From Candidatus Bathyarchaeia archaeon (GTDB lineage: Archaea > Thermoproteota > Bathyarchaeia > Bathyarchaeales > Bathycorpusculaceae): DNA of 18,149 bases. Shown here piece by piece: positions 2,230 through 14,929 of this stretch. The notes below the pieces were generated by a model, which was given only the letters and a program-made list of their open reading frames with translations, searched no databases and was not told the origin of the DNA. The first letter of the stretch is position 1. Each line of letters opens with the position of its first letter. The stretch is taken from assembly GCA_050010515.1 (NCBI GenBank), contig JBEKKX010000043.1, forward strand, positions 1 to 18,149, given 5' to 3'. Made by a program: the position numbers and the translations under genes.

Positions 2230-2652
2230 ATGGCAAGCAATGTTCTCGTAAGAGATATAATGTCAAAAGATGTTAAAACTGTGCGCAATGATACGTCAGT
2301 AAAAGAAGTAGTTGCGTTAATGAACAAGTTCGACAAAGATGCAATACTTGTTGAGCAAAGCGGAAAACCGACAGGAATCATAACAGTCAAAGATGTTCTG
2401 GTAAGAGCAGTTGAACATGGCGTACCCCTGAGTACAATAATAGCAAGAATGGTCTACACAAACCCACTGGTGACAATTGAGGAGACAGCAACCGTTGAAG
2501 AAGCAGCTAAACTGATGAAAGAATGGCGAATCAAGCACTTACCAATCGTTGACAAAAACGGCAGCCTCGTAGGCATGTTAAACGATAGGGACGTAATATA
2601 CGCGGTTCCTTCTTTAATGTCAACGATGGAAGAGTTCTGTCGAACAAAATAA
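2230..2652 (+). CDS. CBS domain pair protein
   Basis: VRDIMSKDV...GIITVKD and LVTIEETATVEEAAKLM...IKHLPIVD...GML: two CBS repeats. Confidence 0.93.
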   Translation: MASNVLVRDIMSKDVKTVRNDTSVKEVVALMNKFDKDAILVEQSGKPTGIITVKDVLVRAVEHGVPLSTIIARMVYTNPLVTIEETATVEEAAKLMKEWRIKHLPIVDKNGSLVGMLNDRDVIYAVPSLMSTMEEFCRTK

Positions 2653-2912
2653 TTTTGATACCCAAATAATTCTTTTTTATCCACAACTTTTTGAAACTTA
2701 CAATTGCTGTATTATCGTACAATTATTGGGCTATGCTCAATTTTAAATCGTTGAACCTGCAGACAAACAAGTTTCCAGCGGTGTTTTTTCAGCTATAGGT
2801 ATAGGGAGGGCGGTGGGCATCTTTGCGTTTGTGCACGATAAAGGCTTTATCGCCTGTTATTGTGTAGGTGAAAGTCAAAATTTTCAGGGTACAGGAGGGA
2901 GGGGTAGGCTAT

Positions 2913-3019
2913 TTGTTGATGAATTTCTCTAGCAAATATGCGGTATCCTCTCTCGATAGGCGCATTATTGGATGAAAATTACGTCAAAAGTGCGGGTATC
3001 CTTCCAGATAAGGAGGGCG
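2913..3019. repeat. Imperfect ~52-bp tandem duplication
   Basis: aaatatgcggtatcctctctcgatagg (from 2934) vs aaaagtgcgggtatccttccagataagg (from 2986), each preceded by ttg(g)atgaa. Confidence 0.55.
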
Positions 3020-3054
3020 TTCATTTAAGATTTTATGAAGTTTTCATAGATGAT

Positions 3055-3084
3055 AAGTCTTAAATCTGTATAGCGTAGAAATAG
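3055..3084 (+). promoter_or_regulatory. Cassette motif copy A (BRE/TATA-containing repeat)
   Basis: AAGTCTTAAATCTGTATAGCGTAGAAATAG, ending 7 nt before ATG 3092. Confidence 0.8.
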
Positions 3085-3091
3085 CTTAAAC

Positions 3092-3301
3092 ATGGCAAAG
3101 AAAGAAAGACATCCCAACTATGATACTCCAGAGGCAAGTCTCACATGGGGATATAAGTGTTCGGGCAAGGCATTAAGCAGTTTAAGAGAACAAGATATTA
3201 AGAATACACGGAAAGCGATTTATGACGTAAGAGAATCTATTAGAGATGCATTATTTCTGCTCAAGAATCCTAAAAAAAACAATAGTGAGCAAAAACAATA
3301 G
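3092..3301 (+). CDS. Small basic hypothetical protein
   Basis: 69-aa ATG ORF directly downstream of motif copy A. Confidence 0.55.
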   Translation: MAKKERHPNYDTPEASLTWGYKCSGKALSSLREQDIKNTRKAIYDVRESIRDALFLLKNPKKNNSEQKQ

Positions 3302-3346
3302 CTGAACCGAAAAACTAATCCAGAATAGTAAAAACAGTGAATCAGA

Positions 3347-3841
3347 ATGAGTGAGTATATCGGCGTAATTGGTGTAATCACTGGTTCTATTGGCACAGCA
3401 ACAGGGATTATTGCTCTTATAAGGATATACAGAAAAGAGAAGCCAAACCTGAAAATAGAAAAAGTAGAAAGTTCACATAACTTCACACATAACCCATCCG
3501 AAAAAACTCACATTAATTTCTGGGCTAAATTTCATGTCAGCAACTTAGGGGATAGAGGAACAAGAATAAACGATATAATCTTATCATTTAGAGTTGATTC
3601 AAAAGACTATATTTTAAAAAAGCAAGACTTCTTTCGAGTGCCATCGGTAGGGTTAAGTGCAAAAATCGAAAAAAGCATATGGCTTGAGGCGCATGATTCG
3701 AGTTATTTTCAAGTGCAATTTATCCAAGAATATGATAGTACCGAGAAAGAACAAATAGATTGCAATTTCAAGATTATTCATACGCATGGTTCAAAGTATG
3801 CCAAAATCACTTCTGTGTTAACGACGGAACATAATTTATAG
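3347..3841 (+). CDS. Membrane-anchored hypothetical protein
   Basis: N-terminal TM helix (YIGVIGVITGSIGTATGIIALI) followed by a beta-rich soluble domain. Confidence 0.75.
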   Translation: MSEYIGVIGVITGSIGTATGIIALIRIYRKEKPNLKIEKVESSHNFTHNPSEKTHINFWAKFHVSNLGDRGTRINDIILSFRVDSKDYILKKQDFFRVPSVGLSAKIEKSIWLEAHDSSYFQVQFIQEYDSTEKEQIDCNFKIIHTHGSKYAKITSVLTTEHNL

Positions 3842-3854
3842 ACAAAACAACTCG

Positions 3855-3913
3855 CCCCTTTTTGTTTTTTGACTTTTTGGCAAAAACTTAAATCTGCATA
3901 GCGTAAAAAATAG
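3855..3913 (+). repeat. T-tract motif plus cassette motif copy B
   Basis: CCCCTTTTTGTTTTTTGACTTTT (3855-3877), then AAAACTTAAATCTGCATAGCGTAAAAAATAG (3883-3913). Confidence 0.8.
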
Positions 3914-3957
3914 GCTGCACATCGCAAAAAAGAAAAACAAAGAAAAAAGGGAAAATA

Positions 3958-4572
3958 TTAGTAATAGTATGTTATCGTTACTGTTTCAGTTGCCCCGCTA
4001 CTAAGAAAACTAAGCCCGTTTCCGACTCCAATTGTTATACTTGAAGACGGTAATACTGGGAATACTGCCGAAGAACCTACATTTATTGCCTGATTTCCCG
4101 TATAAGCTTGGCTATAACTGACTCCATTAGAAGAGTAGCTTATCTCAACCCAAGTGCCAGCAACGGTTGAACTTTGAACATCAACAGAAACGTATCCAGC
4201 ATAACTTGCTGATAGACTAAAGTCAGAGTATGCACCGTTTCCTTGACTTACAGTCTTGTCATTTGCCACAACTGTAGAATCTTGAAGGCTGTTTATGGCA
4301 TTTGCGTTTGCAAGTTGACTCGTTAATGTGGTGATCTGAGCGTTTGCGGTTGCAAGTGCTGTCTCATTTCCACTTAACCATGTTTTTAGGTTGGTAATTT
4401 GAGCGTTTAGTGAAGAACTTGAAGAACTTGAAGAAGATTTTAGTGCATTGTACATGTTGTTTTGATAGACATATACACTAACCATGCCAACAGCAAGGAG
4501 TATGCAAATTATTCCCAAAACAATCGCTGGCGTATTTCTAACAACTTTCTTTGGTTCACTCATTTCAATCAC
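3958..4572 (-). CDS. Membrane-anchored surface protein with coiled-coil stalk
   Basis: N-terminal TM, poly-Ser, heptad-like segment (LNAQITNLK...QITTLTSQL), Ser/Thr-rich beta domain. Confidence 0.8.
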   Translation of the reverse strand: MIEMSEPKKVVRNTPAIVLGIICILLAVGMVSVYVYQNNMYNALKSSSSSSSSSLNAQITNLKTWLSGNETALATANAQITTLTSQLANANAINSLQDSTVVANDKTVSQGNGAYSDFSLSASYAGYVSVDVQSSTVAGTWVEISYSSNGVSYSQAYTGNQAINVGSSAVFPVLPSSSITIGVGNGLSFLSSGATETVTITYYY

Positions 4573-4581
4573 TAAGGTTCT

Positions 4582-4610
4582 CTATATATCCCTTTTCAGA
4601 TATAAGATTT
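4582..4610 (-). promoter_or_regulatory. Cassette motif copy C (divergent, minus strand)
   Basis: Reverse complement reads AAATCTTATATCTGAAAAGGGATATATAG then AGAAC, just upstream of the 4572 start. Confidence 0.6.
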
Positions 4611-4615
4611 TAGCC

Positions 4616-4685
4616 CATACCCTTTTATTTTTTGAAAGCACGAAAAGTCTTAAATCTGTATAGCGAAGAATAGAAGAACTGAGGG
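4616..4685 (+). repeat. T-tract motif plus cassette motif copy D
   Basis: CATACCCTTTTATTTTTTGAAAG, then AAGTCTTAAATCTGTATAGCGAAGAATAG (4645-4673), then AGAACTGAGGG. Confidence 0.8.
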
Positions 4686-4690
4686 TAACT

Positions 4691-4960
4691 GTGAGCAGTA
4701 ATGGAGAAAATAAACGACTGCAAATTCGCAATAACAGAATAAGACTGATAAGGGATTATAAAAAAGAGAAAGGTAACGGAACTTTAACCCCTGAAAAAGA
4801 ACGAGGTTACATTGAGTGGTTGATAATAAACACTCAATCAGCAAGGTCTTTAGAAGGTCTTACTACGGGAAAAGAGAAATGGTTAGGGGAGAAGGATAGG
4901 GAAGAGTTTGTGAGAAGTTTTGAGAGACAAGCAAAAAAAGATTTAGGAATTGAAGAATAA
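4691..4960 (+). CDS. Small charged hypothetical protein
   Basis: 89-aa GTG ORF with GAGGG RBS, bounded by motif copies D and E. Confidence 0.7.
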   Translation: MSSNGENKRLQIRNNRIRLIRDYKKEKGNGTLTPEKERGYIEWLIINTQSARSLEGLTTGKEKWLGEKDREEFVRSFERQAKKDLGIEE

Positions 4961-4961
4961 T

Positions 4962-5001
4962 AAGTCTTAATCTGCATAGCTTAGATTAGTAGAACTGAGG
5001 G
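4962..5001 (+). promoter_or_regulatory. Cassette motif copy E
   Basis: AAGTCTTAATCTGCATAGCTTAGATTAG then AGAACTGAGGG, starting immediately after the 4960 stop. Confidence 0.8.
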
Positions 5002-5007
5002 AAAATA

Positions 5008-5568
5008 TTGTCAAATGAAGATACGGTTTTGAAAGAAGCCTATTCCTCATTTAGCCAAAGACTTAGTTTTAATGATTTTCAGAATAAGATTAATCTGAAG
5101 ACATTAGGGACAGATAAATGGAATTTTGCCAGAGCGGTTCAACAATTTCAAGAAGCCATTAAATATGAAGAATCTAATCCAGATTTAGAAATAGCTTTAT
5201 TATGCTCTTGTGCTGAAGCCCTACAACTTGAAAAAACTTCTTTAAAAAGATTCAAAGAATTTTATTTGCGGTATTGCCCTTCCAATCTTAGGACTTCCCC
5301 AATAAAATATTATCCTAATGGCAAAGTACCTGAAATTACCGCACCATTTGGCAAAGCACTTGAATTCATATATAGACAGTTAAGAAGTGTTTATATTCAT
5401 GAAGGAACTGAACATTTAAAACCTGAACCAATTCGAAATGGGATTTTCGGGGATGTAATTAGGAATAAAGATGGCACGAAAGACTTTTATTTTTTTGATA
5501 AAATGAAAACACTCGAATGGTTCAGACAAATCACCTTTGAAAGCCTTTATGTAATGTTAACTAAATAG
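5008..5568 (+). CDS. Putative HEPN-domain protein
   Basis: Helical protein with LCSCAEAL and an Rx4H motif RSVYIH. Confidence 0.6.
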   Translation: MSNEDTVLKEAYSSFSQRLSFNDFQNKINLKTLGTDKWNFARAVQQFQEAIKYEESNPDLEIALLCSCAEALQLEKTSLKRFKEFYLRYCPSNLRTSPIKYYPNGKVPEITAPFGKALEFIYRQLRSVYIHEGTEHLKPEPIRNGIFGDVIRNKDGTKDFYFFDKMKTLEWFRQITFESLYVMLTK

Positions 5569-5574
5569 CTCATA

Positions 5575-5596
5575 CCCCTTTTGTTTTTTGACTTTT
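5575..5596 (+). terminator. Shared T-tract motif, likely archaeal terminator
   Basis: CCCCTTTTGTTTTTTGACTTTT right after the stop, nearly identical to 3855-3877. Confidence 0.65.
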
Positions 5597-6135
5597 GATA
5601 AATTGCCGATTTTTAACAGAGGTATAGTTAAGGAATTATGTAAATTTGTTTTAACCTTCTCAAGAGACTTGATGAAGAACAAATCCAAAACCGATTCAAA
5701 AACTATTCCAAAATCAATTTCAAAAATGATTGAAGAACCGTTAAAAATCTCGGAAAATTTTTTGATAAATTTATTTCCAAAAAACAGTTTGCTGAAAAAG
5801 GCGTATGTACGCATCCGAGCCTCATGCTACTCGTGGCTTCTTAGCTTGAATCGCCTTGATTCTCAGAGATTTCGATGTTTTAACCGTATCATTGGCTTTC
5901 ACTACTTAGATAATAGCTAACAGCAATTAAAACTTTAAGATTTCAAAACAAAAGGTTTTAACATTTATGAATAACAATTAAGTAACGGCTTAACACCAAA
6001 ATAAGCCAAAACTACCTCCCTACCGTTTATATAAACGCAATCCCTGACTGCCGAAGCTCACCCTTCTTATATTATGTCCTAAAATTTTTTAATGACACTA
6101 TTGATTTTGGGGTTTTGATGTTTTTTTGATAGTAC

Positions 6136-6855
6136 CTAAAAAAGAGTTAAGAGAACCAATATCAAACCACACATAGCGAAAACGAATATTCCTATTTGTA
6201 TACCTCTTTTTTTGAATGCATTTATGAGCCACTGATTTTTGACATGATTAAGAAGCCACATGTACAACCTGCTACATTTGACACAATAGCGCACGCGCCA
6301 CTCGTACCACTTGTGAATTTTGGCATCATAATATAACCACTTGCGACTTTTGGCATAATAATATTCAGACCAAAATCCGAAGAATATGTATATGAGCGAA
6401 AATGTTAAAGCAAAAAGCAAGATGAATGATAACCCAAACCACACTTGCTGGTCTAACCGATAAAGGGTACTGGATATTCCGTATATGGAGAACTCATGAA
6501 TGTTCTTAAAAATATCTGTTAAATATATTTGAATCCCGAAAATGACTGTAGTATTATTCGCGACCGCGCTGGAAAGGGCTTCTTTTTCTGTAACTGTCAA
6601 GACTGTGGTGTTCATCCATGCCCAAAATATTATTTTTGACGCAAAATATTCGATTAAGCTAATTGGCAAACTTAAAACCAATAAAAACCATATTCTGTGG
6701 TTGTTATATAATTCTCTGAAATCTTTGCTGGAAATCAATACAAAAATACCAACTGTTAAGGCTAATACATAGCCAACATGATTGGTAGTTTGCGAACTAT
6801 AGCTGTTAATTAATGCTGTTCTCAAGCTTTCGAAATCTGGATTAATAGCTGACAA
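6136..6855 (-). CDS. Multi-pass membrane hypothetical protein
   Basis: 239 aa with about four hydrophobic segments; upstream AAAAAGTCTTTTAAG TATA-like box. Confidence 0.75.
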   Translation of the reverse strand: MSAINPDFESLRTALINSYSSQTTNHVGYVLALTVGIFVLISSKDFRELYNNHRIWFLLVLSLPISLIEYFASKIIFWAWMNTTVLTVTEKEALSSAVANNTTVIFGIQIYLTDIFKNIHEFSIYGISSTLYRLDQQVWFGLSFILLFALTFSLIYIFFGFWSEYYYAKSRKWLYYDAKIHKWYEWRVRYCVKCSRLYMWLLNHVKNQWLINAFKKRGIQIGIFVFAMCGLILVLLTLF

Positions 6856-7094
6856 ACCAATCCAGTTTTAGTTGTTTGGTTTTATCTTAAAAGACTTTTT
6901 ATTCTGAATGTTTATGGTCTAAAGTTTTCAGAATTTGTTGATAATTAACGGTTTTTCGTTGTTGTTGGATTCTGATTCTTTTCATGCATTAACCCCCTCA
7001 AAAGATTCATCTTTTTTTTCATATTGAGGTTTCAACGGTTCAATTTTGCCTTTTTTTAACGAATTCGTTTAAGAACTTGGATGTCAAAACAAAA

Positions 7095-7469
7095 TCATGC
7101 GTGTTCTATAAATGTCTCCTTTGCAGCTTCTTTTTTCATATACTCCTTGAGTTTTTCTGGAGGTATACAATTCTTGAGACTGGGGCAATATTTGTTCGTG
7201 TGAAAAGCTAGAAGCTCAGAAAGTGGCTCAACAATTTCCCTGTTCAAAGAGTACAGCTTCTCTTTTCCGGAACCCTCTGAGCGCACTATTGCGTAATGTT
7301 CTAGCCGTTTAAGGTTATAAGCGACTGCGCTTTCATCTTGTTCCAGAGCATCTGAAACTCCTGAAATGTTTTTGGGGCCTTCTTTTAGAACATCAATTAT
7401 GGCCAGACGCGTTCTATTTGCCAGTGCAGAGAAAAACAGATAATATGCTTCGTTCGAGAAATTTTCCAT
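7095..7469 (-). CDS. ArsR/SmtB family transcriptional regulator
   Basis: FSALANRTRLAIIDVLKEGP...VAYNLKRL...Y wHTH signature; GGTGA RBS. Confidence 0.9.
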   Translation of the reverse strand: MENFSNEAYYLFFSALANRTRLAIIDVLKEGPKNISGVSDALEQDESAVAYNLKRLEHYAIVRSEGSGKEKLYSLNREIVEPLSELLAFHTNKYCPSLKNCIPPEKLKEYMKKEAAKETFIEHA

Positions 7470-7926: not shown

Positions 7927-8514
7927 ATGAAAACCATCGTTCTAATAGCAATCATAGTAACTCTACTTCTATGCCTCACAGCCATAGCTAACGCAACGAC
8001 TACAACGCTAACGGCAACTCCTAACAACAGCAACGTATTCCAAGTCAAAGGAACAGGATTCACACCTGGCGAAATCGTAAACCTGACGCTGTACAATAAA
8101 ACTGCAATCGTATTCAAATTCAACAATCTCACAGCAGATTCCACCGACTCAATCAATGGAACAGAAATAATCCCAACAAGCATAGCAGGAGGAAACTACA
8201 ACATTACCGCAGTAGGGTTAACAAGCAAGCTTGCTGCTACAGTCATAAACTACGCAGTACCCAACCTCATCGGAAAAACAGGAGCAACAGGAGCAACTGG
8301 TGCCACAGGAACAACTGGCGCTGCAGGAGCAACAGGAGCAACTGGTGCCACAGGAACAACAGGAGCAACTGGTGCTACAGGAGCAACAGGGCAATCGGCT
8401 GACATGACTGCCTCTTACATTGCCGTATTTCTCAGCTTAATAGCTATTGTCATAGCTGTCATCGCAGTGATAAAAGGAAAAGCGCGCGAGCCTCCACCGC
8501 CTCCCCCACTATAA
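7927..8514 (+). CDS. Secreted, membrane-anchored collagen-like protein
   Basis: Signal peptide, 14 consecutive Gly-X-Y triplets (mostly GAT), C-terminal TM and poly-Pro tail; GGAGGTGA RBS. Confidence 0.88.
8272..8397 (+). repeat. Gly-X-Thr collagen repeat region
   Basis: 9-nt units; ggagcaacaggagcaactggtgccacaggaacaac occurs at 8281 and 8326. Confidence 0.9.
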
Positions 8515-8766: not shown

Positions 8767-8791
8767 GGGGTTTGAATCCCCTTCAGCGCCA
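8767..8791 (+). other. Degenerate 3' tRNA fragment (possible att site)
   Basis: GGGG-TTTGAAT-CCCC T-arm-like hairpin followed by TTCAGCGCCA; no tRNA 5' half upstream. Confidence 0.5.
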
Positions 8792-8850
8792 CTTGAAAAG
8801 ATTAAGCATGTTTTCTAAAAAATGGGCAATGAAGGATGCGGTGGTATCTT

Positions 8851-8967
8851 AGAGCATTTAGGGTTTGCTGAGGCTCTGGAACACTTTTAAGGAGAAAAGA
8901 ATGAAGCTTGCTAAAGGCTATTGCTTTTCGTGAATTTAACCAGAGCCTTCTCAGCCCCATCTACTCT
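8851..8967. repeat. Long imperfect inverted repeat
   Basis: agagcatttagggtttgctgaggctctgg (8851-8879) pairs with ccagagccttctcagccccatctactct (8940-8967). Confidence 0.7.
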
Positions 8968-9054
8968 TTCTTCTCTGTATTTTCTCTTATGCCTTTGATT
9001 TTGATTGTTTTTTAAGACTAAAAAAGGGGAAAGTAAAGGGGTTCATTCCCTTAC

Positions 9055-11649
9055 CTATGGTCGTTTTCTGAGCATCAGCATTGCCAGTATAACGCCGATT
9101 ATGATTATCACAACTATTGCAGCAACGATCCCAATAGTTAGGGCTGACATTGTTGCTAGGCCTGTTACAGGTGCAGCTGTTGGCGCTGGTGTTGCCGATG
9201 CTTGTTGTACAGTGCAGTAAGTTGTTGAGGTTGAGCCATAGTAGGAATTGGTTCCGCTGAATGTGGCTGTGATATGGTAGGTTCCTGGGACTGATGGAGG
9301 CGTCCATGAGAAGCCGTAGTTGCCGGAGGTGTCGGTTGTAGTTGTACCAAGGGTGATAAAGTTGTGGTTGGGGTCAATGGCTGTTAGGGTAACTTGGACG
9401 CCGGTCGTGTTTGTTGGCATTGGTTGCTGTTCGTAAACGTATTCCATAAACTGAGTCATGCTTGCGTCAGATACGCATGGTAAGCCGTTGGGGAAGTTTG
9501 CTGCTACTGCGTTTTGTTGTGAGCCCGCAGAGATGTCCATTACTGAACCCGTTATCGTCACTGGTGTAGCAGTTGTAACGCCAACTTGAGGTGCTGTAAC
9601 AGTTGTTTTGCTTGGTCCCATGCCATAGGCATATATCTGGTTGTCGTAGCCGTTTAGAGCCATGAGGATGCCATCTGAAACGGGCGTAATGCCTTCGTAA
9701 AATGAAGTTATGCTCCAGAGTTCAGTTCCAGAAGTAGCGTTTACACAGTAAAGTTGTGCTCCTCTGAACACGGGGTCACCATGAGTGTCACCAGTTTGCA
9801 AGTAGATTTTTCCGTCAGCAACGGTCATAGAAGTGCCTTCAAACGGATAGTAACTGAAACCGGGGAAATCCACTCCACTACTAATTCCTTTAAAATCCCA
9901 CAATTTCTGGCCAGTTGTGAGATTAAAGGCGTGAACCCCATCCGCGGCAAATCCATATAGGATTCCATAAGCAATTTGGGATGACGACGCGGATCCTTCT
10001 GAACCCCAAGGATCAGTATCCGATGCAGTTGGACCCCACAGCTTAGCGCCAGTGTTAGCATTATAGGCGTACCACTGCTCACTTAAGGAGTCGTATGCTG
10101 TGAATATGCCGTCAGCCATTGGTCCCAGACTGTAGTCGAATCCTGTTGTGGGTCCAGATGGCAGTGTTACTTTTTGAATCCATAGTTGTTGCCCTGTTGT
10201 TGCGCTATAACCTATTTCTGTTGTAGAGCTCTGTGGCGCAAAATAGCTAAATACTCCCGACAATGTGCTTGCAAGTACTATTCCTGAATTGACGTCTGCT
10301 ATTGCCTCACCTGGGTAAGTTTGAACCGTAACGTTCCATTGTACTCCTGTATTCCAGTTAAGAATCGCTCCAATTGGCGGACTCCAGACCCAAGAGTTTG
10401 AACTAAACAGTGGGATCGGCGGGGTATAGCGTCCGAACGTTCCGATGCAAAGAGACGAGTTCCACATAGCTATCCAATTAGTCCCAATGATATAGTCCAG
10501 CAGTTCACCACTAGGTCCTTCGACAGTTGTGCCGCCGGTTATTGCATTTGCAACTTGTAATATCCGGTTTCCTGTGTTAGCGTCATACATATCCCACGTA
10601 GTTGTGCCAGTAAACCACAAGTAGGGAAAGCCTCCTTCCATGTTAGGCGACAGATAGTTATACACTTGACCTATCGAAATCCCTGGATAAGCCCAACCTG
10701 TCACTAAACCGCCCATAGGTTGGTACACTGGTTCAGTGCTGTTTTGCCACCATAACGTTTGTCCCGTACGCAAATCTACAGCATAAAATCCTTCTCTGGG
10801 ATTCGTAGGAGCATTATAATAGAGTACGCCATTGATGATTATTGGTGGTTGGAACTCTGTTTGATATGTCTTTCCAGTAAAGTAGTTACTTGTACCGGTT
10901 CCGCCGAACTCTCCTCCGATTAAGCCTCCAGCCTCCAATGGCTTAGTCCACATTATATGAGCACTATTAGGCGCGGTAGTCCACGCGTTAAAGTTTCCAG
11001 TCGCGTTGTAATTTGTTGATCCAAAAGTGGATGCACCTAATGCCAGCCAATTTCCTGAAATTGTGTACCATGCTTGATTTTGAGAATTTATCGGGCGAGT
11101 CCAGTAGGTTGTTGGAAGCGGAGCTTGAGGCGTTGTTGTTGCTGCTTGCTGTTGCACCGTAAGGATTGCCGTGGAACTGCTTGCTGCATAATAACTGTCA
11201 ACCGGTGCCATCGTTAGTGGACTGATTCCAGTTACGTGCTGTCCTGGAAAAGTGAACTTAAAGGTGTAGTTGCCGAGTTGATTAGGAGTGTAGGTTGTGA
11301 CCGCGAATGAAGCATCATTAGCTGTGAAAGGCCCTAGCGTTAGAGTGGTTCCGTCAGGCTTTGTGACCGCTATTGTAAAACCTGCCCATCTACCACCAAT
11401 TAAACCAGTTGCAGTCGGATTGGGCTGCCCTAACCACATCTCTATGGTTACCTGCTGATTGATTCCTGCAGGGCTTGGCGAAAGAGCAATAAAGGCATTC
11501 GTCGGAAGAGGAGAAGCTGCAGTCTGCGCTTTTGAAGTTGGAATAGCCGCCATTATTCCGGAAACTGTCAACAGCAGAATCAAAGCAATTGAAAATAGTG
11601 TCTGTTTTCCATGAATTTTAGCATTCTTTCTAATGAAGTTGATAGACAT
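9055..11649 (-). CDS. Large secreted PQQ-like beta-propeller repeat surface protein
   Basis: Signal peptide, repeated (A/C)xDxxTGxxLW-type blade motifs, Ig-like flanks, C-terminal TM + RKRP. ATG 11649 preferred over the TTG at 11715. Confidence 0.9.
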   Translation of the reverse strand: MSINFIRKNAKIHGKQTLFSIALILLLTVSGIMAAIPTSKAQTAASPLPTNAFIALSPSPAGINQQVTIEMWLGQPNPTATGLIGGRWAGFTIAVTKPDGTTLTLGPFTANDASFAVTTYTPNQLGNYTFKFTFPGQHVTGISPLTMAPVDSYYAASSSTAILTVQQQAATTTPQAPLPTTYWTRPINSQNQAWYTISGNWLALGASTFGSTNYNATGNFNAWTTAPNSAHIMWTKPLEAGGLIGGEFGGTGTSNYFTGKTYQTEFQPPIIINGVLYYNAPTNPREGFYAVDLRTGQTLWWQNSTEPVYQPMGGLVTGWAYPGISIGQVYNYLSPNMEGGFPYLWFTGTTTWDMYDANTGNRILQVANAITGGTTVEGPSGELLDYIIGTNWIAMWNSSLCIGTFGRYTPPIPLFSSNSWVWSPPIGAILNWNTGVQWNVTVQTYPGEAIADVNSGIVLASTLSGVFSYFAPQSSTTEIGYSATTGQQLWIQKVTLPSGPTTGFDYSLGPMADGIFTAYDSLSEQWYAYNANTGAKLWGPTASDTDPWGSEGSASSSQIAYGILYGFAADGVHAFNLTTGQKLWDFKGISSGVDFPGFSYYPFEGTSMTVADGKIYLQTGDTHGDPVFRGAQLYCVNATSGTELWSITSFYEGITPVSDGILMALNGYDNQIYAYGMGPSKTTVTAPQVGVTTATPVTITGSVMDISAGSQQNAVAANFPNGLPCVSDASMTQFMEYVYEQQPMPTNTTGVQVTLTAIDPNHNFITLGTTTTDTSGNYGFSWTPPSVPGTYHITATFSGTNSYYGSTSTTYCTVQQASATPAPTAAPVTGLATMSALTIGIVAAIVVIIIIGVILAMLMLRKRP

Positions 11650-13944: not shown

Positions 13945-14213
13945 GGCAAAGTATCTTCTTCTCTTAGCCTCTTCTTTTTTTCTTATTCCTAACTTAGTTA
14001 GCTTAAGCAATCATGTATTGAGGCAATTATTACGCACATTAGAGCTCTGAACAATTGAGCAATTAACAAGTACCTTTTTTACTAGCACAGTTATCACCAG
14101 GAACATTTGAGCATACCTCTTTGAGGTACATGGTAGAGGTAGAAGCTTAGAATATTGTTATAATCTTAGATCCTTGGTTACTCGTGATATTTAGGTAAGT
14201 ATTCATGGATAAT

Positions 14214-14242
14214 AAATCTTAAATCTGGATAACTTAGAATAG
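14214..14242 (+). promoter_or_regulatory. Cassette motif copy F
   Basis: AAATCTTAAATCTGGATAACTTAGAATAG upstream of ATG 14268. Confidence 0.7.
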
Positions 14243-14267
14243 TCCAAACAATGGTGAAACATCAGAT

Positions 14268-14486
14268 ATGAATAATAAAATTTTTGCCATGTTTCTATTG
14301 ATTGGCGGTTTAGTTCTCTTACTTGTCGGCGTTGCGATTGCGATATCCTCAATGAACCAAGCGATAGAAAGCCCATTCATTACAAATGTTAACAGTACTT
14401 GGAATACTGAAGCAGTGGCTATTCTATTAGCAGCAATTGGAGCTATTCTAATTCTTTTTGGAATTTTGATTCTTTTTAGAAGCTGA
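14268..14486 (+). CDS. Small two-TM membrane protein
   Basis: 72 aa with two hydrophobic helices, preceded by motif F. Confidence 0.75.
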   Translation: MNNKIFAMFLLIGGLVLLLVGVAIAISSMNQAIESPFITNVNSTWNTEAVAILLAAIGAILILFGILILFRS

Positions 14487-14763: not shown

Positions 14764-14929
14764 TTTTGTCTCTCCACCTCATTTTTTGAAAGGCGATTTG
14801 GCACTATGCTAAATCTGTTTAGCAAAAATACCTAACTAAAATTGACCTCATCCCTCTTTTCTGAAAGGCTTTTTTCAAGTTGCTTTTTTGGTTTAGGGTT
14901 TGATTTTGCGTTAGGTTGCGGGAAATTTT

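What the first reader, a model, noticed from the sequence alone, without database searches (positions are those of the whole stretch)
3055..5596. Array of unrelated single genes separated by a conserved terminator+promoter repeat: candidate archaeal gene-cassette system
Seen: a ~30-bp motif recurs at 3055 (AAGTCTTAAATCTGTATAGCGTAGAAATAG), 3883, 4582-4610 (minus strand), 4645 and 4962, with a weak copy near 3310 and distant copies at 14214 and possibly 14807. Most copies sit just upstream of a short unrelated ORF. A second motif, CCCCTTTT(T)GTTTTTTGA, follows stops or precedes the motif (3855, 4616, 5575). Conservation extends ~20 bp past the TATA box, and the motif is absent in front of rubrerythrin, CBS, TrmB and cdvB. 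It is pseudo-palindromic: copy E reads TAATCT-gcatagctt-AGATTA. Cargo is membrane proteins, small ORFans and a HEPN protein. Inference: modular cassettes shuffled by recombination at the repeat, analogous to integron arrays or repeated-promoter modules in T4-like phages. No attC-type GTTRRRY hairpin and no recombinase are visible in the window.
Basis: partly seen in the sequence, partly recalled or inferred. Interest (0 to 1): 0.8.

Follow-up and report, generated by a model that had tools for sequence, protein, structure and literature searches.

The report
Shared promoter heads swappable archaeal gene cassettes
A 32-base promoter sequence is copied in front of dozens of unrelated small genes in the variable islands of a peat Bathyarchaeon, and gene swaps between relatives start or stop at it, much like the promoter cassettes that shuffle genes in T4-like phages.

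Summary
The repeat is real. Five of the eight claimed copies are significant in the window (3037-3097, 3860-3913, 4623-4688, 4955-5003, 14192-14254). The genome holds 37 copies at E<=1e-3. The conserved part runs from -7 to +25 around the organism's normal TATA box (GATAAGT-CTTAAATC-TGCATAGCGTAGAAATAG). Start codons follow 32-50 nt after the TATA start, so it is a promoter of leaderless or short-leader, mostly single-gene units.

It is restricted to part of one Bathyarchaeia genus. It sits almost only in species-specific DNA: 5 of 37 downstream stretches align to a complete relative, against 62% of random stretches. Window 2757-7092 is a 4.3-kb island missing from relatives whose flanks abut. 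Multi-copy clusters are always co-oriented. Cargo is non-homologous, mostly small membrane proteins and ORFans.

Homology between copies in different contexts begins or ends at the motif edge, and one 58-aa cassette occurs in three contexts bounded by motifs. This fits modular shuffling at a shared promoter, as with phage PeSLs.

The integron analogy fails: no hairpin and no linked integrase. The terminator half is present in only 8 of 37 copies. Transcription, the binding factor and the recombination mechanism are untested.

The parts
2757..7092 (.). 4.3-kb species-specific island between the CBS-domain gene and a converging ArsR-type HTH gene
   Evidence: None of the 150 listed matches from 60 genus relatives covers it (145 further matches were not listed). 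The flanks are 37 bp apart in G016 and 63 bp apart in G062, and enclose a different ~980-bp insert in G046.
3037..3097 (+). promoter motif copy A (conserved core 3052-3084; TATA CTTAAATC at 3059-3066); the ATG at 3092 is 33 nt after the TATA start, so probably leaderless
   Evidence: nhmmer E 4e-14; exact core; sequence
3092..3841 (+). unit A cargo: 69-aa ORF (3092-3301) and 164-aa ORF (3347-3841), no detected motif between them, probably one transcript
   Evidence: ORFs; no Pfam, PADLOC or PHROG family; no motif near 3310
3855..3880 (+). T-rich stretch after the 164-aa gene, likely an oligo-T archaeal terminator; runs straight into copy B
3860..3913 (+). promoter motif copy B, an orphan: no + strand ORF follows; it faces the 3' end of a reversed gene
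   Evidence: nhmmer E 1e-9; no ORF of 35 aa or more downstream. The same layout occurs at G000 C21:38483.
3958..4572 (-). reversed 204-aa gene: N-terminal membrane anchor plus Asn/Gln/Ser-rich coiled region
   Evidence: ORF. Only weak, below-cut-off matches: SoxE_N and MapZ, Rz-like spanin at E 3e-4.
4582..4625 (-). promoter of the reversed gene; possibly a decayed family member (14 of 16 core bases of the TCTGAAAAGC variant, by eye)
   Evidence: sequence; nhmmer E=5, not significant
4623..4688 (+). promoter motif copy D, preceded by a T-rich stretch (4616-4632)
   Evidence: nhmmer E 2e-12. Homology to metagenome contig L134 starts at 4643, 5 nt before the TATA.
4691..4960 (+). 89-aa cargo ORF (GTG start, short leader with GAGGG)
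4955..5003 (+). promoter motif copy E (1-nt deletion in the TATA), directly abutting the stop codon of the 89-aa gene
   Evidence: nhmmer E 1e-7
5008..5568 (+). 186-aa cargo protein of an uncharacterised family with invariant R126-x4-H131
   Evidence: 15 homologues at 44-59% identity plus the window's own cluster; alignment of 13 of these 16; model pLDDT 84 with no PDB fold match at E<=0.001
5574..5600 (+). T-rich terminator-like stretch followed by GATAAAT but no TATA or core. It reads as the upstream half of a module cut at the core start. Homology to L133 ends at 5572-5593.
14192..14254 (+). distant promoter motif copy F heading a 72-aa two-TM protein (14268-14486), in DNA without a listed match in relatives
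   Evidence: nhmmer E 1e-7

Best explanation
The repeat is an extended archaeal promoter. It has a BRE-like GATAAGT, the organism's ordinary TATA box CTTAAATC, and an 18-bp family-specific segment TGCATAGCGTAGAAATAG that fills the space up to about 5 nt before the expected transcription start. Each copy drives one short unit, usually a single gene, leaderless or with a leader of 20 nt or less.

The family is confined to part of one Bathyarchaeia genus and to its flexible genome. Copies stand in co-oriented arrays inside small islands that differ between species. They head non-homologous cargo, mainly small membrane proteins and ORFans.

Because every unit begins with the same ~32 bp, the promoter doubles as a patch of homology. 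I infer that recombination between copies, most simply homologous or short-homology recombination, inserts, deletes and replaces promoter-equipped gene units. A newly placed gene is then expressed at once and under the same control as its neighbours. The 18-bp segment between TATA and start is probably the site of a shared DNA-binding regulator.

Shown: the motif, its geometry, its restriction to variable DNA, and the mosaic homology that ends at its edges.

Inferred: promoter activity, the regulator, and recombination as the cause of the mosaics.
For: Promoter reading.
- CTTAAAT-type boxes lie about 33 nt before mature tRNA 5' ends in this genome.
- Of 38 downstream ORFs, 5 start 32-33 nt and 19 start 35-50 nt after the TATA start.
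- All 9 multi-copy clusters are co-oriented with their cargo.

Family-specific extension.
- In 58 copies from two species, information is 1.2-1.8 bits from -6 to +21 (except +10, +12, +16).
- 25 ordinary promoters with TTAAAT at the same distance show 0.6 bits or less outside the box.
- The consensus is the same in three species whose conserved genes are about 87-93% identical.

Distribution.
- G000 has 44 hits at E<=1 and 37 at E<=1e-3.
- The pattern occurs in 11 of 24 other species of the genus and 0 of 16 genomes of other families. The reversed-pattern control gives 0 everywhere.
- It occurs in 5 of 5 further close relatives, with 7-19 copies each.

Flexible genome.
- Only 5 of 37 downstream 300-bp stretches align to the complete genome G003, against 62% of 20,000 random stretches (binomial p 1e-9). 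Those 5 also sit at synteny breaks.
- 0 of 23 G046 copies lie in collinear DNA shared with G000: 12 are in unmatched DNA and 11 are at alignment ends.
- G003's copies lie in 2.8-6.5-kb inserts where G000 has 137-775 bp.
- 27 of 37 copies lie within 5 kb of a contig end, against 26% expected.

Mosaics.
- G000 C18 and C21 share only [motif - 58-aa gene - motif], at 88% identity from -4 of one motif to +31 of the next. The same cassette sits in a third context in G046.
- C5:60745, C5:61988 and C15:722 share upstream sequence plus motif only; homology ends at +27 to +30.
- G046 L025:7914 shares upstream sequence plus motif with C40 and C47, ending at +21.
- Metagenome contig L134 matches the window only from -5 of copy D.
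- G020 L006 shares motif plus gene with G003.
- 12 of 137 alignment ends fall within -55..+35 of a motif. Expected: 2.0 if uniform (maximum 8 in 5000 permutations).

Cargo. There are only 5 paralogous pairs among 38 downstream ORFs.
Against: - Promoter activity and the start site are therefore inferred from geometry alone.
- With a null restricted to DNA free of ORFs of 80 aa or more, the breakpoint enrichment is modest: 12 observed against 6.8 expected, with 177 of 5000 permutations reaching 12. Breakpoints fall between genes anyway.
- Homology that ends at a motif edge is also what one expects whenever two unrelated units merely share the motif, whatever moved them.
- The outer borders of the window's island are not in a motif.
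- No pair of copies is near-identical over long flanks (best 92.7% over 905 bp), so there is no sign of very recent movement.
- No circular or excised form could be sought.
- No regulator was identified, and the number of TFB genes does not track the motif.
- 12 of 37 copies have no ORF of 35 aa or more starting within 90 nt.
Confidence: 0.6

Rival explanations
1. Regulon only. The motif is a promoter plus operator kept by selection because one regulator controls all these accessory genes. Gene turnover in the islands happens by ordinary illegitimate recombination or horizontal transfer. The motif marks module borders only because promoters lie between genes.
For: All positions from -7 to +25 are conserved, with the same consensus in three species, as expected for a protein-binding site. 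The breakpoint enrichment is weak under an intergenic null (p about 0.035). The island's outer borders are not in a motif.
Against: It does not explain how dozens of non-homologous, species-specific genes each acquired the same 32 bp (5 paralogous pairs among 38). It does not explain why one cassette recurs in three contexts cut exactly at motifs, or why upstream-plus-motif segments are shared in front of different genes. Some copying of the promoter together with, or onto, genes is needed in any case.
Confidence: 0.2
2. Remnants of a lineage-specific virus or plasmid. The islands are integrated pieces of mobile elements whose early or accessory genes all use one element-specific regulatory sequence, as in rudiviruses and HGTV-1.
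For: Archaeal viruses place one conserved BRE/TATA-containing regulatory sequence before many small unrelated single genes (PMC11065993, abstract and section 6 read; PMC3950731, passage on HGTV-1 read). Cargo is ORFan-rich. The islands are insertions into intergenic sites.
Against: No capsid, replication or integrase genes occur in or next to the arrays: 5 PF00589 hits in the genome, none within 5 kb of an array, and Pfam and PHROGs find nothing viral. The arrays are short (1-6 kb) and scattered over 22 loci. The only 3 IMG/VR contigs with the motif are one host-like locus syntenic with G000 C29, with one copy each.
Confidence: 0.12
3. Integron-like site-specific system. The motif is an attC-like site cut and joined by a dedicated recombinase encoded elsewhere.
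For: Co-oriented arrays of single unrelated genes separated by a repeat. Integrons have been reported in Archaea (10.1101/2022.02.06.479319, search listing only).
Against: The motif forms no hairpin on either strand: z +0.3 to +1.9, and -0.05 for copy E. No integrase is linked. Each cassette has its own promoter. There is no attI- or Pc-like head of the array.
Confidence: 0.03
4. Assembly or binning artefact. The repeats and islands are chimeric joins or foreign contigs in the bin.
For: 27 of 37 copies lie within 5 kb of contig ends.
Against: The window's island is flanked on one contig by core genes that are syntenic in relatives. Arrays also occur inside a complete single-contig relative. 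The island's words are held by runs of many studies (17 rows with at least half of them; 5 rows may be the source).
Confidence: 0.02

Closest known systems
PeSLs (promoter-early stem-loops) of T4-type phages (Arbiol et al. 2010, PMC2839356, abstract and sections 13 and 16 read; Comeau et al. 2014, PMC4122927, abstract read)
   Same: A repeated consensus promoter sits immediately upstream of ORFans. It is concentrated in hyperplastic regions between conserved blocks. Insertions, deletions and replacements between close relatives are bounded by the repeats. The units bring their own expression signals.
   Different: This is a cellular archaeal chromosome, not a phage. The promoter is a BRE/TATA type, not sigma-70. 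There is no stem-loop, and a T-rich terminator accompanies only 8 of 37 copies. The conserved stretch is ~32 bp rather than ~100 bp. Mini-circles have not been tested.
Consensus regulatory sequences before early and anti-defence genes of archaeal viruses, e.g. SIRV2 (Bhoobalan-Chitty et al. 2024, PMC11065993, abstract and section 6 read), and the TATA-plus-inverted-repeat motif of haloarchaeal virus HGTV-1 (PMC3950731, passage read)
   Same: A highly similar BRE/TATA-containing sequence precedes many small, mostly single, mutually unrelated genes in variable genome regions. A repressor site within the sequence is proposed.
   Different: Here the copies lie in chromosomal islands at 22 loci with syntenic core flanks. 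No viral genes are present. No inverted repeat is present. No timing or regulator data exist.
Putative mobile promoters (PMPs) of prokaryotic genomes (Nijveen et al. 2012, PMC3575422, most of the text read)
   Same: Near-identical upstream sequences occur before non-paralogous genes within a genome and in related species. The mode of spread is unknown.
   Different: PMPs were defined as at least 80% identity over at least 50 nt in the -150..-50 window, and most families are pairs. This family has 37 copies, a 32-bp core abutting the start site, array organisation, and restriction to variable islands.
Integron cassette arrays
   Same: Co-oriented arrays of unrelated single genes separated by a repeat; accessory cargo.
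   Different: No attC hairpin, no integrase, no common Pc promoter. Each unit has its own promoter.

Membership tests
Integron (attC cassette array) | attC site: imperfect inverted repeat that folds as a single-strand hairpin | tested here: not met
   7 folds of 5 copies (2 also on the minus strand): energies no better than shuffles, z -0.05 to +1.9
Integron (attC cassette array) | Linked tyrosine recombinase (IntI) at the head of the array | tested here: not met
   PF00589 gives 5 hits in G000 (C22, C9, C21 broken, C1, C2). None is within 5 kb of a motif cluster and none is in the window.
Integron (attC cassette array) | Mostly promoterless cassettes read from one Pc promoter | tested here: not met
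   The repeat itself has promoter geometry in front of each unit
PeSL-type mobile regulatory cassette | Repeated motif matching the host's consensus promoter directly upstream of ORFans | tested here: met
   The TATA equals the organism's usual box. 25 of 37 copies have an ORF of 35 aa or more starting within 90 nt. Most cargo has no family. Activity itself was not tested.
PeSL-type mobile regulatory cassette | Stem-loop terminator as part of the motif | tested here: not met
   No stable hairpin. A T-run of 5 or more lies within 60 nt upstream in 8 of 37 copies.
PeSL-type mobile regulatory cassette | Concentration in hyperplastic regions, with indels and replacements between close relatives bounded by the motif | tested here: met
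   The enrichment of breakpoints is strong against a uniform null and modest (p about 0.035) against an intergenic null.
PeSL-type mobile regulatory cassette | Excised mini-circles with one chimeric motif | not testable with these tools
PeSL-type mobile regulatory cassette | Resides in a T4-type phage genome | tested here: not met
   Chromosomal context with core genes syntenic in relatives
Archaeal-virus consensus regulatory sequence (early / anti-defence genes) | Conserved BRE+TATA-containing sequence before many small unrelated genes | tested here: met
Archaeal-virus consensus regulatory sequence (early / anti-defence genes) | Located on a virus genome; early expression; wHTH repressor | tested here: not met
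   The viral-location part was tested and not met: no viral hallmark genes, and the 3 viral-collection hits are one host-like locus. Expression timing and the repressor are not testable here.
Putative mobile promoter (PMP) | At least 80% identity over at least 50 nt upstream of non-paralogous genes | tested here: inconclusive
   The core is ~32 bp. Subsets share 55-120 bp including upstream sequence.
MITE / insertion sequence end | Terminal inverted repeats and target-site duplication | tested here: not met
   All 9 multi-copy clusters are co-oriented, with no inverted partners. No duplication is visible at the island borders examined (by eye only).

The most novel reading that the evidence does not exclude
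Archaeal chromosomes may have their own recombinase-independent gene-cassette system. A lineage-specific ~32-bp promoter/operator would be both the expression signal and the crossover site, so that a genus-wide pool of promoter-equipped single-gene cassettes (envelope and conflict genes) is continually inserted, deleted and swapped in small islands. This would be a cellular counterpart of phage PeSLs. Unchecked notes of this scan on ammonia-oxidising and DPANN archaea hint that it could be widespread, with a different motif in each lineage.
Probability: 0.35. Interest if true: 0.8.

Novelty: new variant of a known kind. Interest (0 to 1): 0.62.

Why it matters
Archaeal pangenomes are full of small islands of unannotated genes, and it is unclear how these are built and expressed. 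A shared promoter that also bounds the exchanged units would explain two things at once: how foreign or new genes are expressed immediately, and why turnover is confined to harmless intergenic spots.

It also gives a practical handle. In uncultured Bathyarchaeia, which are abundant in peat and sediments, scanning for the motif picks out the flexible, probably co-regulated gene set. The 18-bp segment is a bait for the unknown regulator.

I found no description of such a system in a cellular archaeal genome in full-text searches. The searched library lacks most subscription journals, and supplements were closed.

Tried and rejected
- RNA evidence: no RNA holder listed.
- Rfam: no match in window 2500-7300 or in locus L122.
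- Cargo function: PADLOC gave only two weak hits (E about 7e-4 to 8e-4) among 10 cargo proteins. PHROGs gave two weak hits among 10.
- 186-aa protein: no Pfam family. Its nearest Atlas clusters are unnamed. No PDB fold at E<=0.001. 'HEPN' therefore stays a guess resting on an invariant R-x4-H. A genome-contig scan with this protein found no relative. The metagenome scan found 3 loci, one of them identical to the window.
- Dedicated TFB paralogue: TFIIB-domain match counts do not separate motif-bearing from motif-free genomes. G000, with the most copies, has 4 matches, the same as many motif-free species.
- Linked integrase: none.
- Viral origin: the viral-contig scan gave 3 contigs, all one host-like locus.
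- CRISPR-like array: rejected, because spacing is 300-800 bp and filled by ORFs.
- Target-site duplications at island borders: none seen by eye. Intergenic divergence at 87% identity limits this check.
- Earlier notes on this genome or this sequence: none.
Full report
**What is there.**
The window is one whole 18,149-bp contig (C43) of a 2.38-Mb, 66-contig genome that is 98.5% complete. Record titles of its relatives identify it as a Bathyarchaeia archaeon. The island's words occur in peat and wetland metagenome runs.

The core CTTAAATCTGYATAGC matches 7 places in the window with up to 3 mismatches, against 0.41 expected. A profile built from 20 genome copies finds five significant copies in the window: 3037-3097, 3860-3913, 4623-4688, 4955-5003 and 14192-14254. 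The claimed copies at 4582-4610 (minus strand), near 3310 and at 14807 are not significant.

Genome-wide there are 44 hits at E<=1 and 37 at E<=1e-3. They form 22 clusters. The nine clusters with two or more copies are all co-oriented, and 27 of 37 copies lie within 5 kb of a contig end, against 26% expected.

**Anatomy.**
I aligned 58 copies from this genome and from its nearest relative, G046. Information content is high from -7 to +25 relative to the first base of the TATA box: gAtAAGT-CTTAAATC-TGcATAGCGTAGAAatag. It is near zero beyond those limits.

CTTAAAT-type boxes stand about 33 nt before tRNA 5' ends in this genome, so the box is the organism's ordinary TATA. In 25 ordinary promoters with TTAAAT at the same distance from an ATG, the flanks carry 0.6 bits or less. 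The 18 bp between TATA and start are therefore specific to this family.

Start codons follow 32-33 nt after the TATA start in 5 of 38 downstream ORFs and 35-50 nt after it in 19. The units are thus leaderless or have short leaders.

A subset, 13 of 37, also shares an upstream AAGTTTTCAT..GATGATAAGT extension. Only 8 of 37 have a T-run of 5 or more within 60 nt upstream.

The motif does not fold into a hairpin on either strand. It matches no Rfam family.

**Where it occurs.**
The pattern, with up to 3 mismatches, is found in 11 of 24 other species of the genus and in 0 of 16 genomes from other families of the order. The reversed-pattern control gives zero hits in all 41 genomes. Five further close relatives all have it, with 7-19 copies each. 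The consensus is the same in three species whose conserved genes are 87-93% identical.

**The motif marks the flexible genome.**
Window 2757-7092 has no counterpart among the 150 listed matches from 60 genus relatives; 145 weaker matches were not listed. Its flanks lie 37 bp apart in G016 and 63 bp apart in G062, and they enclose a different ~980-bp insert in G046.

I fetched the complete chromosome of relative G003 for a direct comparison.
- 61.8% of this genome aligns to G003.
- Only 5 of 37 stretches of 300 bp downstream of a motif are at least half covered, against 62% of 20,000 random stretches (p 1e-9).
- Even those five sit at synteny breaks.

G003's own 12 copies lie in inserts of 2.8-6.5 kb where this genome has 137-775 bp. 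Of 23 copies in 140 kb fetched from G046, none lies in DNA collinear with this genome. Twelve are in unmatched DNA and eleven are at the ends of alignments.

**Cargo.**
Among 38 downstream ORFs there are only five paralogous pairs. Most have no Pfam family. The exceptions are:
- a GNAT acetyltransferase;
- a 2H phosphoesterase;
- a NosD-like beta-helix protein;
- a membrane-anchored metallophosphatase;
- a borderline Trypco2 match, just under its cut-off.

By a crude hydropathy rule, 17 of 25 cargo proteins have at least one hydrophobic segment, against 29% of 1,596 ORFs of 150 aa or more. PADLOC and PHROGs add nothing firm.

The window's 186-aa protein belongs to an uncharacterised family with an invariant R-x4-H. 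It has no known fold match, so 'HEPN' is unproven.

**Mosaic structure.**
Contigs C18 and C21 of this genome share only [motif - 58-aa membrane protein gene - motif]. Identity is 88%, running from -4 of the first motif to about +31 of the next, with unrelated flanks. The same cassette sits in a third context in G046.

Other examples:
- C5:60745, C5:61988 and C15:722 share upstream sequence and the motif but not the gene. Homology ends at +27 to +30.
- A G046 copy shares upstream sequence and motif with C40 and C47 and then diverges at +21.
- A metagenome contig from another population matches the window only from 4643, 5 nt before the TATA of copy D. A second contig stops matching just after the stop codon of the 186-aa gene.
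- A G020 locus shares motif plus gene with G003.
- In G046 an island of three units begins about 30 nt before its first TATA, where this genome has an empty 100-bp spacer.

Counting all alignment ends in the G046 loci, 12 of 137 fall within -55..+35 of a motif. The expectation is 2.0 under a uniform null (maximum 8 in 5,000 permutations). It is 6.8 under a null restricted to DNA free of ORFs of 80 aa or more, where 177 of 5,000 permutations reach 12.

The association with breakpoints is therefore real. Part of it is only the fact that breakpoints lie between genes.

**Interpretation.**
The simplest reading has three parts.
- The repeat is a lineage-specific extended promoter that heads exchangeable single-gene units.
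- Recombination between copies inserts, deletes and replaces units.
- The 18-bp segment is a shared control site.

This is the logic proposed for PeSLs of T4-like phages (PMC2839356 and PMC4122927; abstracts read, plus sections 13 and 16 of the former). It also resembles the conserved regulatory sequences before small unrelated early genes of archaeal viruses (PMC11065993, abstract and section 6; PMC3950731, passage on HGTV-1).

The present case differs in three ways. It is chromosomal. It lacks a stem-loop. It is short.

The integron analogy fails on hairpin, integrase and promoterless cassettes. A pure regulon does not explain how unrelated species-specific genes acquired the same 32 bp. A viral-remnant origin lacks any viral gene, and the three viral-collection hits are one host-like locus.

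**What remains open.**
Nothing here shows transcription, the regulator, the recombination mechanism or the direction of events. The window's own island borders are not in a motif. Twelve of 37 copies have no nearby ORF of 35 aa or more; among them is orphan copy B at 3860-3913, which faces a reversed gene. These may be scars of rearrangement, may drive tiny ORFs or RNAs, or may be antisense promoters.

Unchecked notes of this scan describe similar shared-promoter cassettes in ammonia-oxidising, Aenigmatarchaeota and Nanoarchaeota genomes and in an archaeal virus. They are leads for a wider survey, not support. Paper supplements were closed and may hold motif tables that bear on novelty.

Noticed in passing
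window 2955-3012; also G000 C25:11449, C23:2278, C18:20549, C6:52016, C8:30115, C16:40338, C3:75399, C5:12390: A second short repeat family of about 45 nt, consensus roughly GCGCACTATTGATATGAAAAYTACGTCAAAAGTGCGGGTATC, with a CGCAC...GTGCG stem around a 25-nt loop. Several copies are preceded by a TATA-like TTTAAAAA about 20 nt upstream. It may be a small RNA or a leader element. No Rfam match in the window copy.
   Followed up: partly
G000 C21:37561-37860 and about 32 other places (e.g. C32:24957, C28:21091, C7:66652, C4:46642, C8:58005, C49:2729): A ~230-bp intergenic repeat family at 78-88% identity, both orientations, some copies truncated. One copy lies just upstream of the C21 motif array and one lies near an island site on C4. 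No Rfam match. Possibly a MITE-like element.
   Followed up: partly
window 8768-9680 (5' part of the 886-aa PQQ/Ig-like surface protein gene, minus strand): This stretch has paralogous matches elsewhere in the genome (C28:2241-3002 at 79%, C5:2348-3203 at 75%), so the large secreted protein belongs to a multi-copy family.
   Followed up: no
G000 C2:15294-15438 and G003 2097894-2098040, 1481778-1481910: A ~145-bp sequence directly upstream of the motif copy at C2:15450 recurs at 73-74% identity in G003. One copy lies beside G003's motif island at 2.10 Mb. This may be a longer upstream module of some copies.
   Followed up: no
G046 L024/L030 versus G000 C8:25662-25720: A rearrangement breakpoint between the two species has a motif array on the G046 side. 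The first motif lies 17 nt from the break. Arrays may also mark larger rearrangements.
   Followed up: no
window 7927-8514: A 195-aa ORF with a collagen-like triple-helix repeat match (E 1e-7), next to the island and conserved in G046.
   Followed up: no
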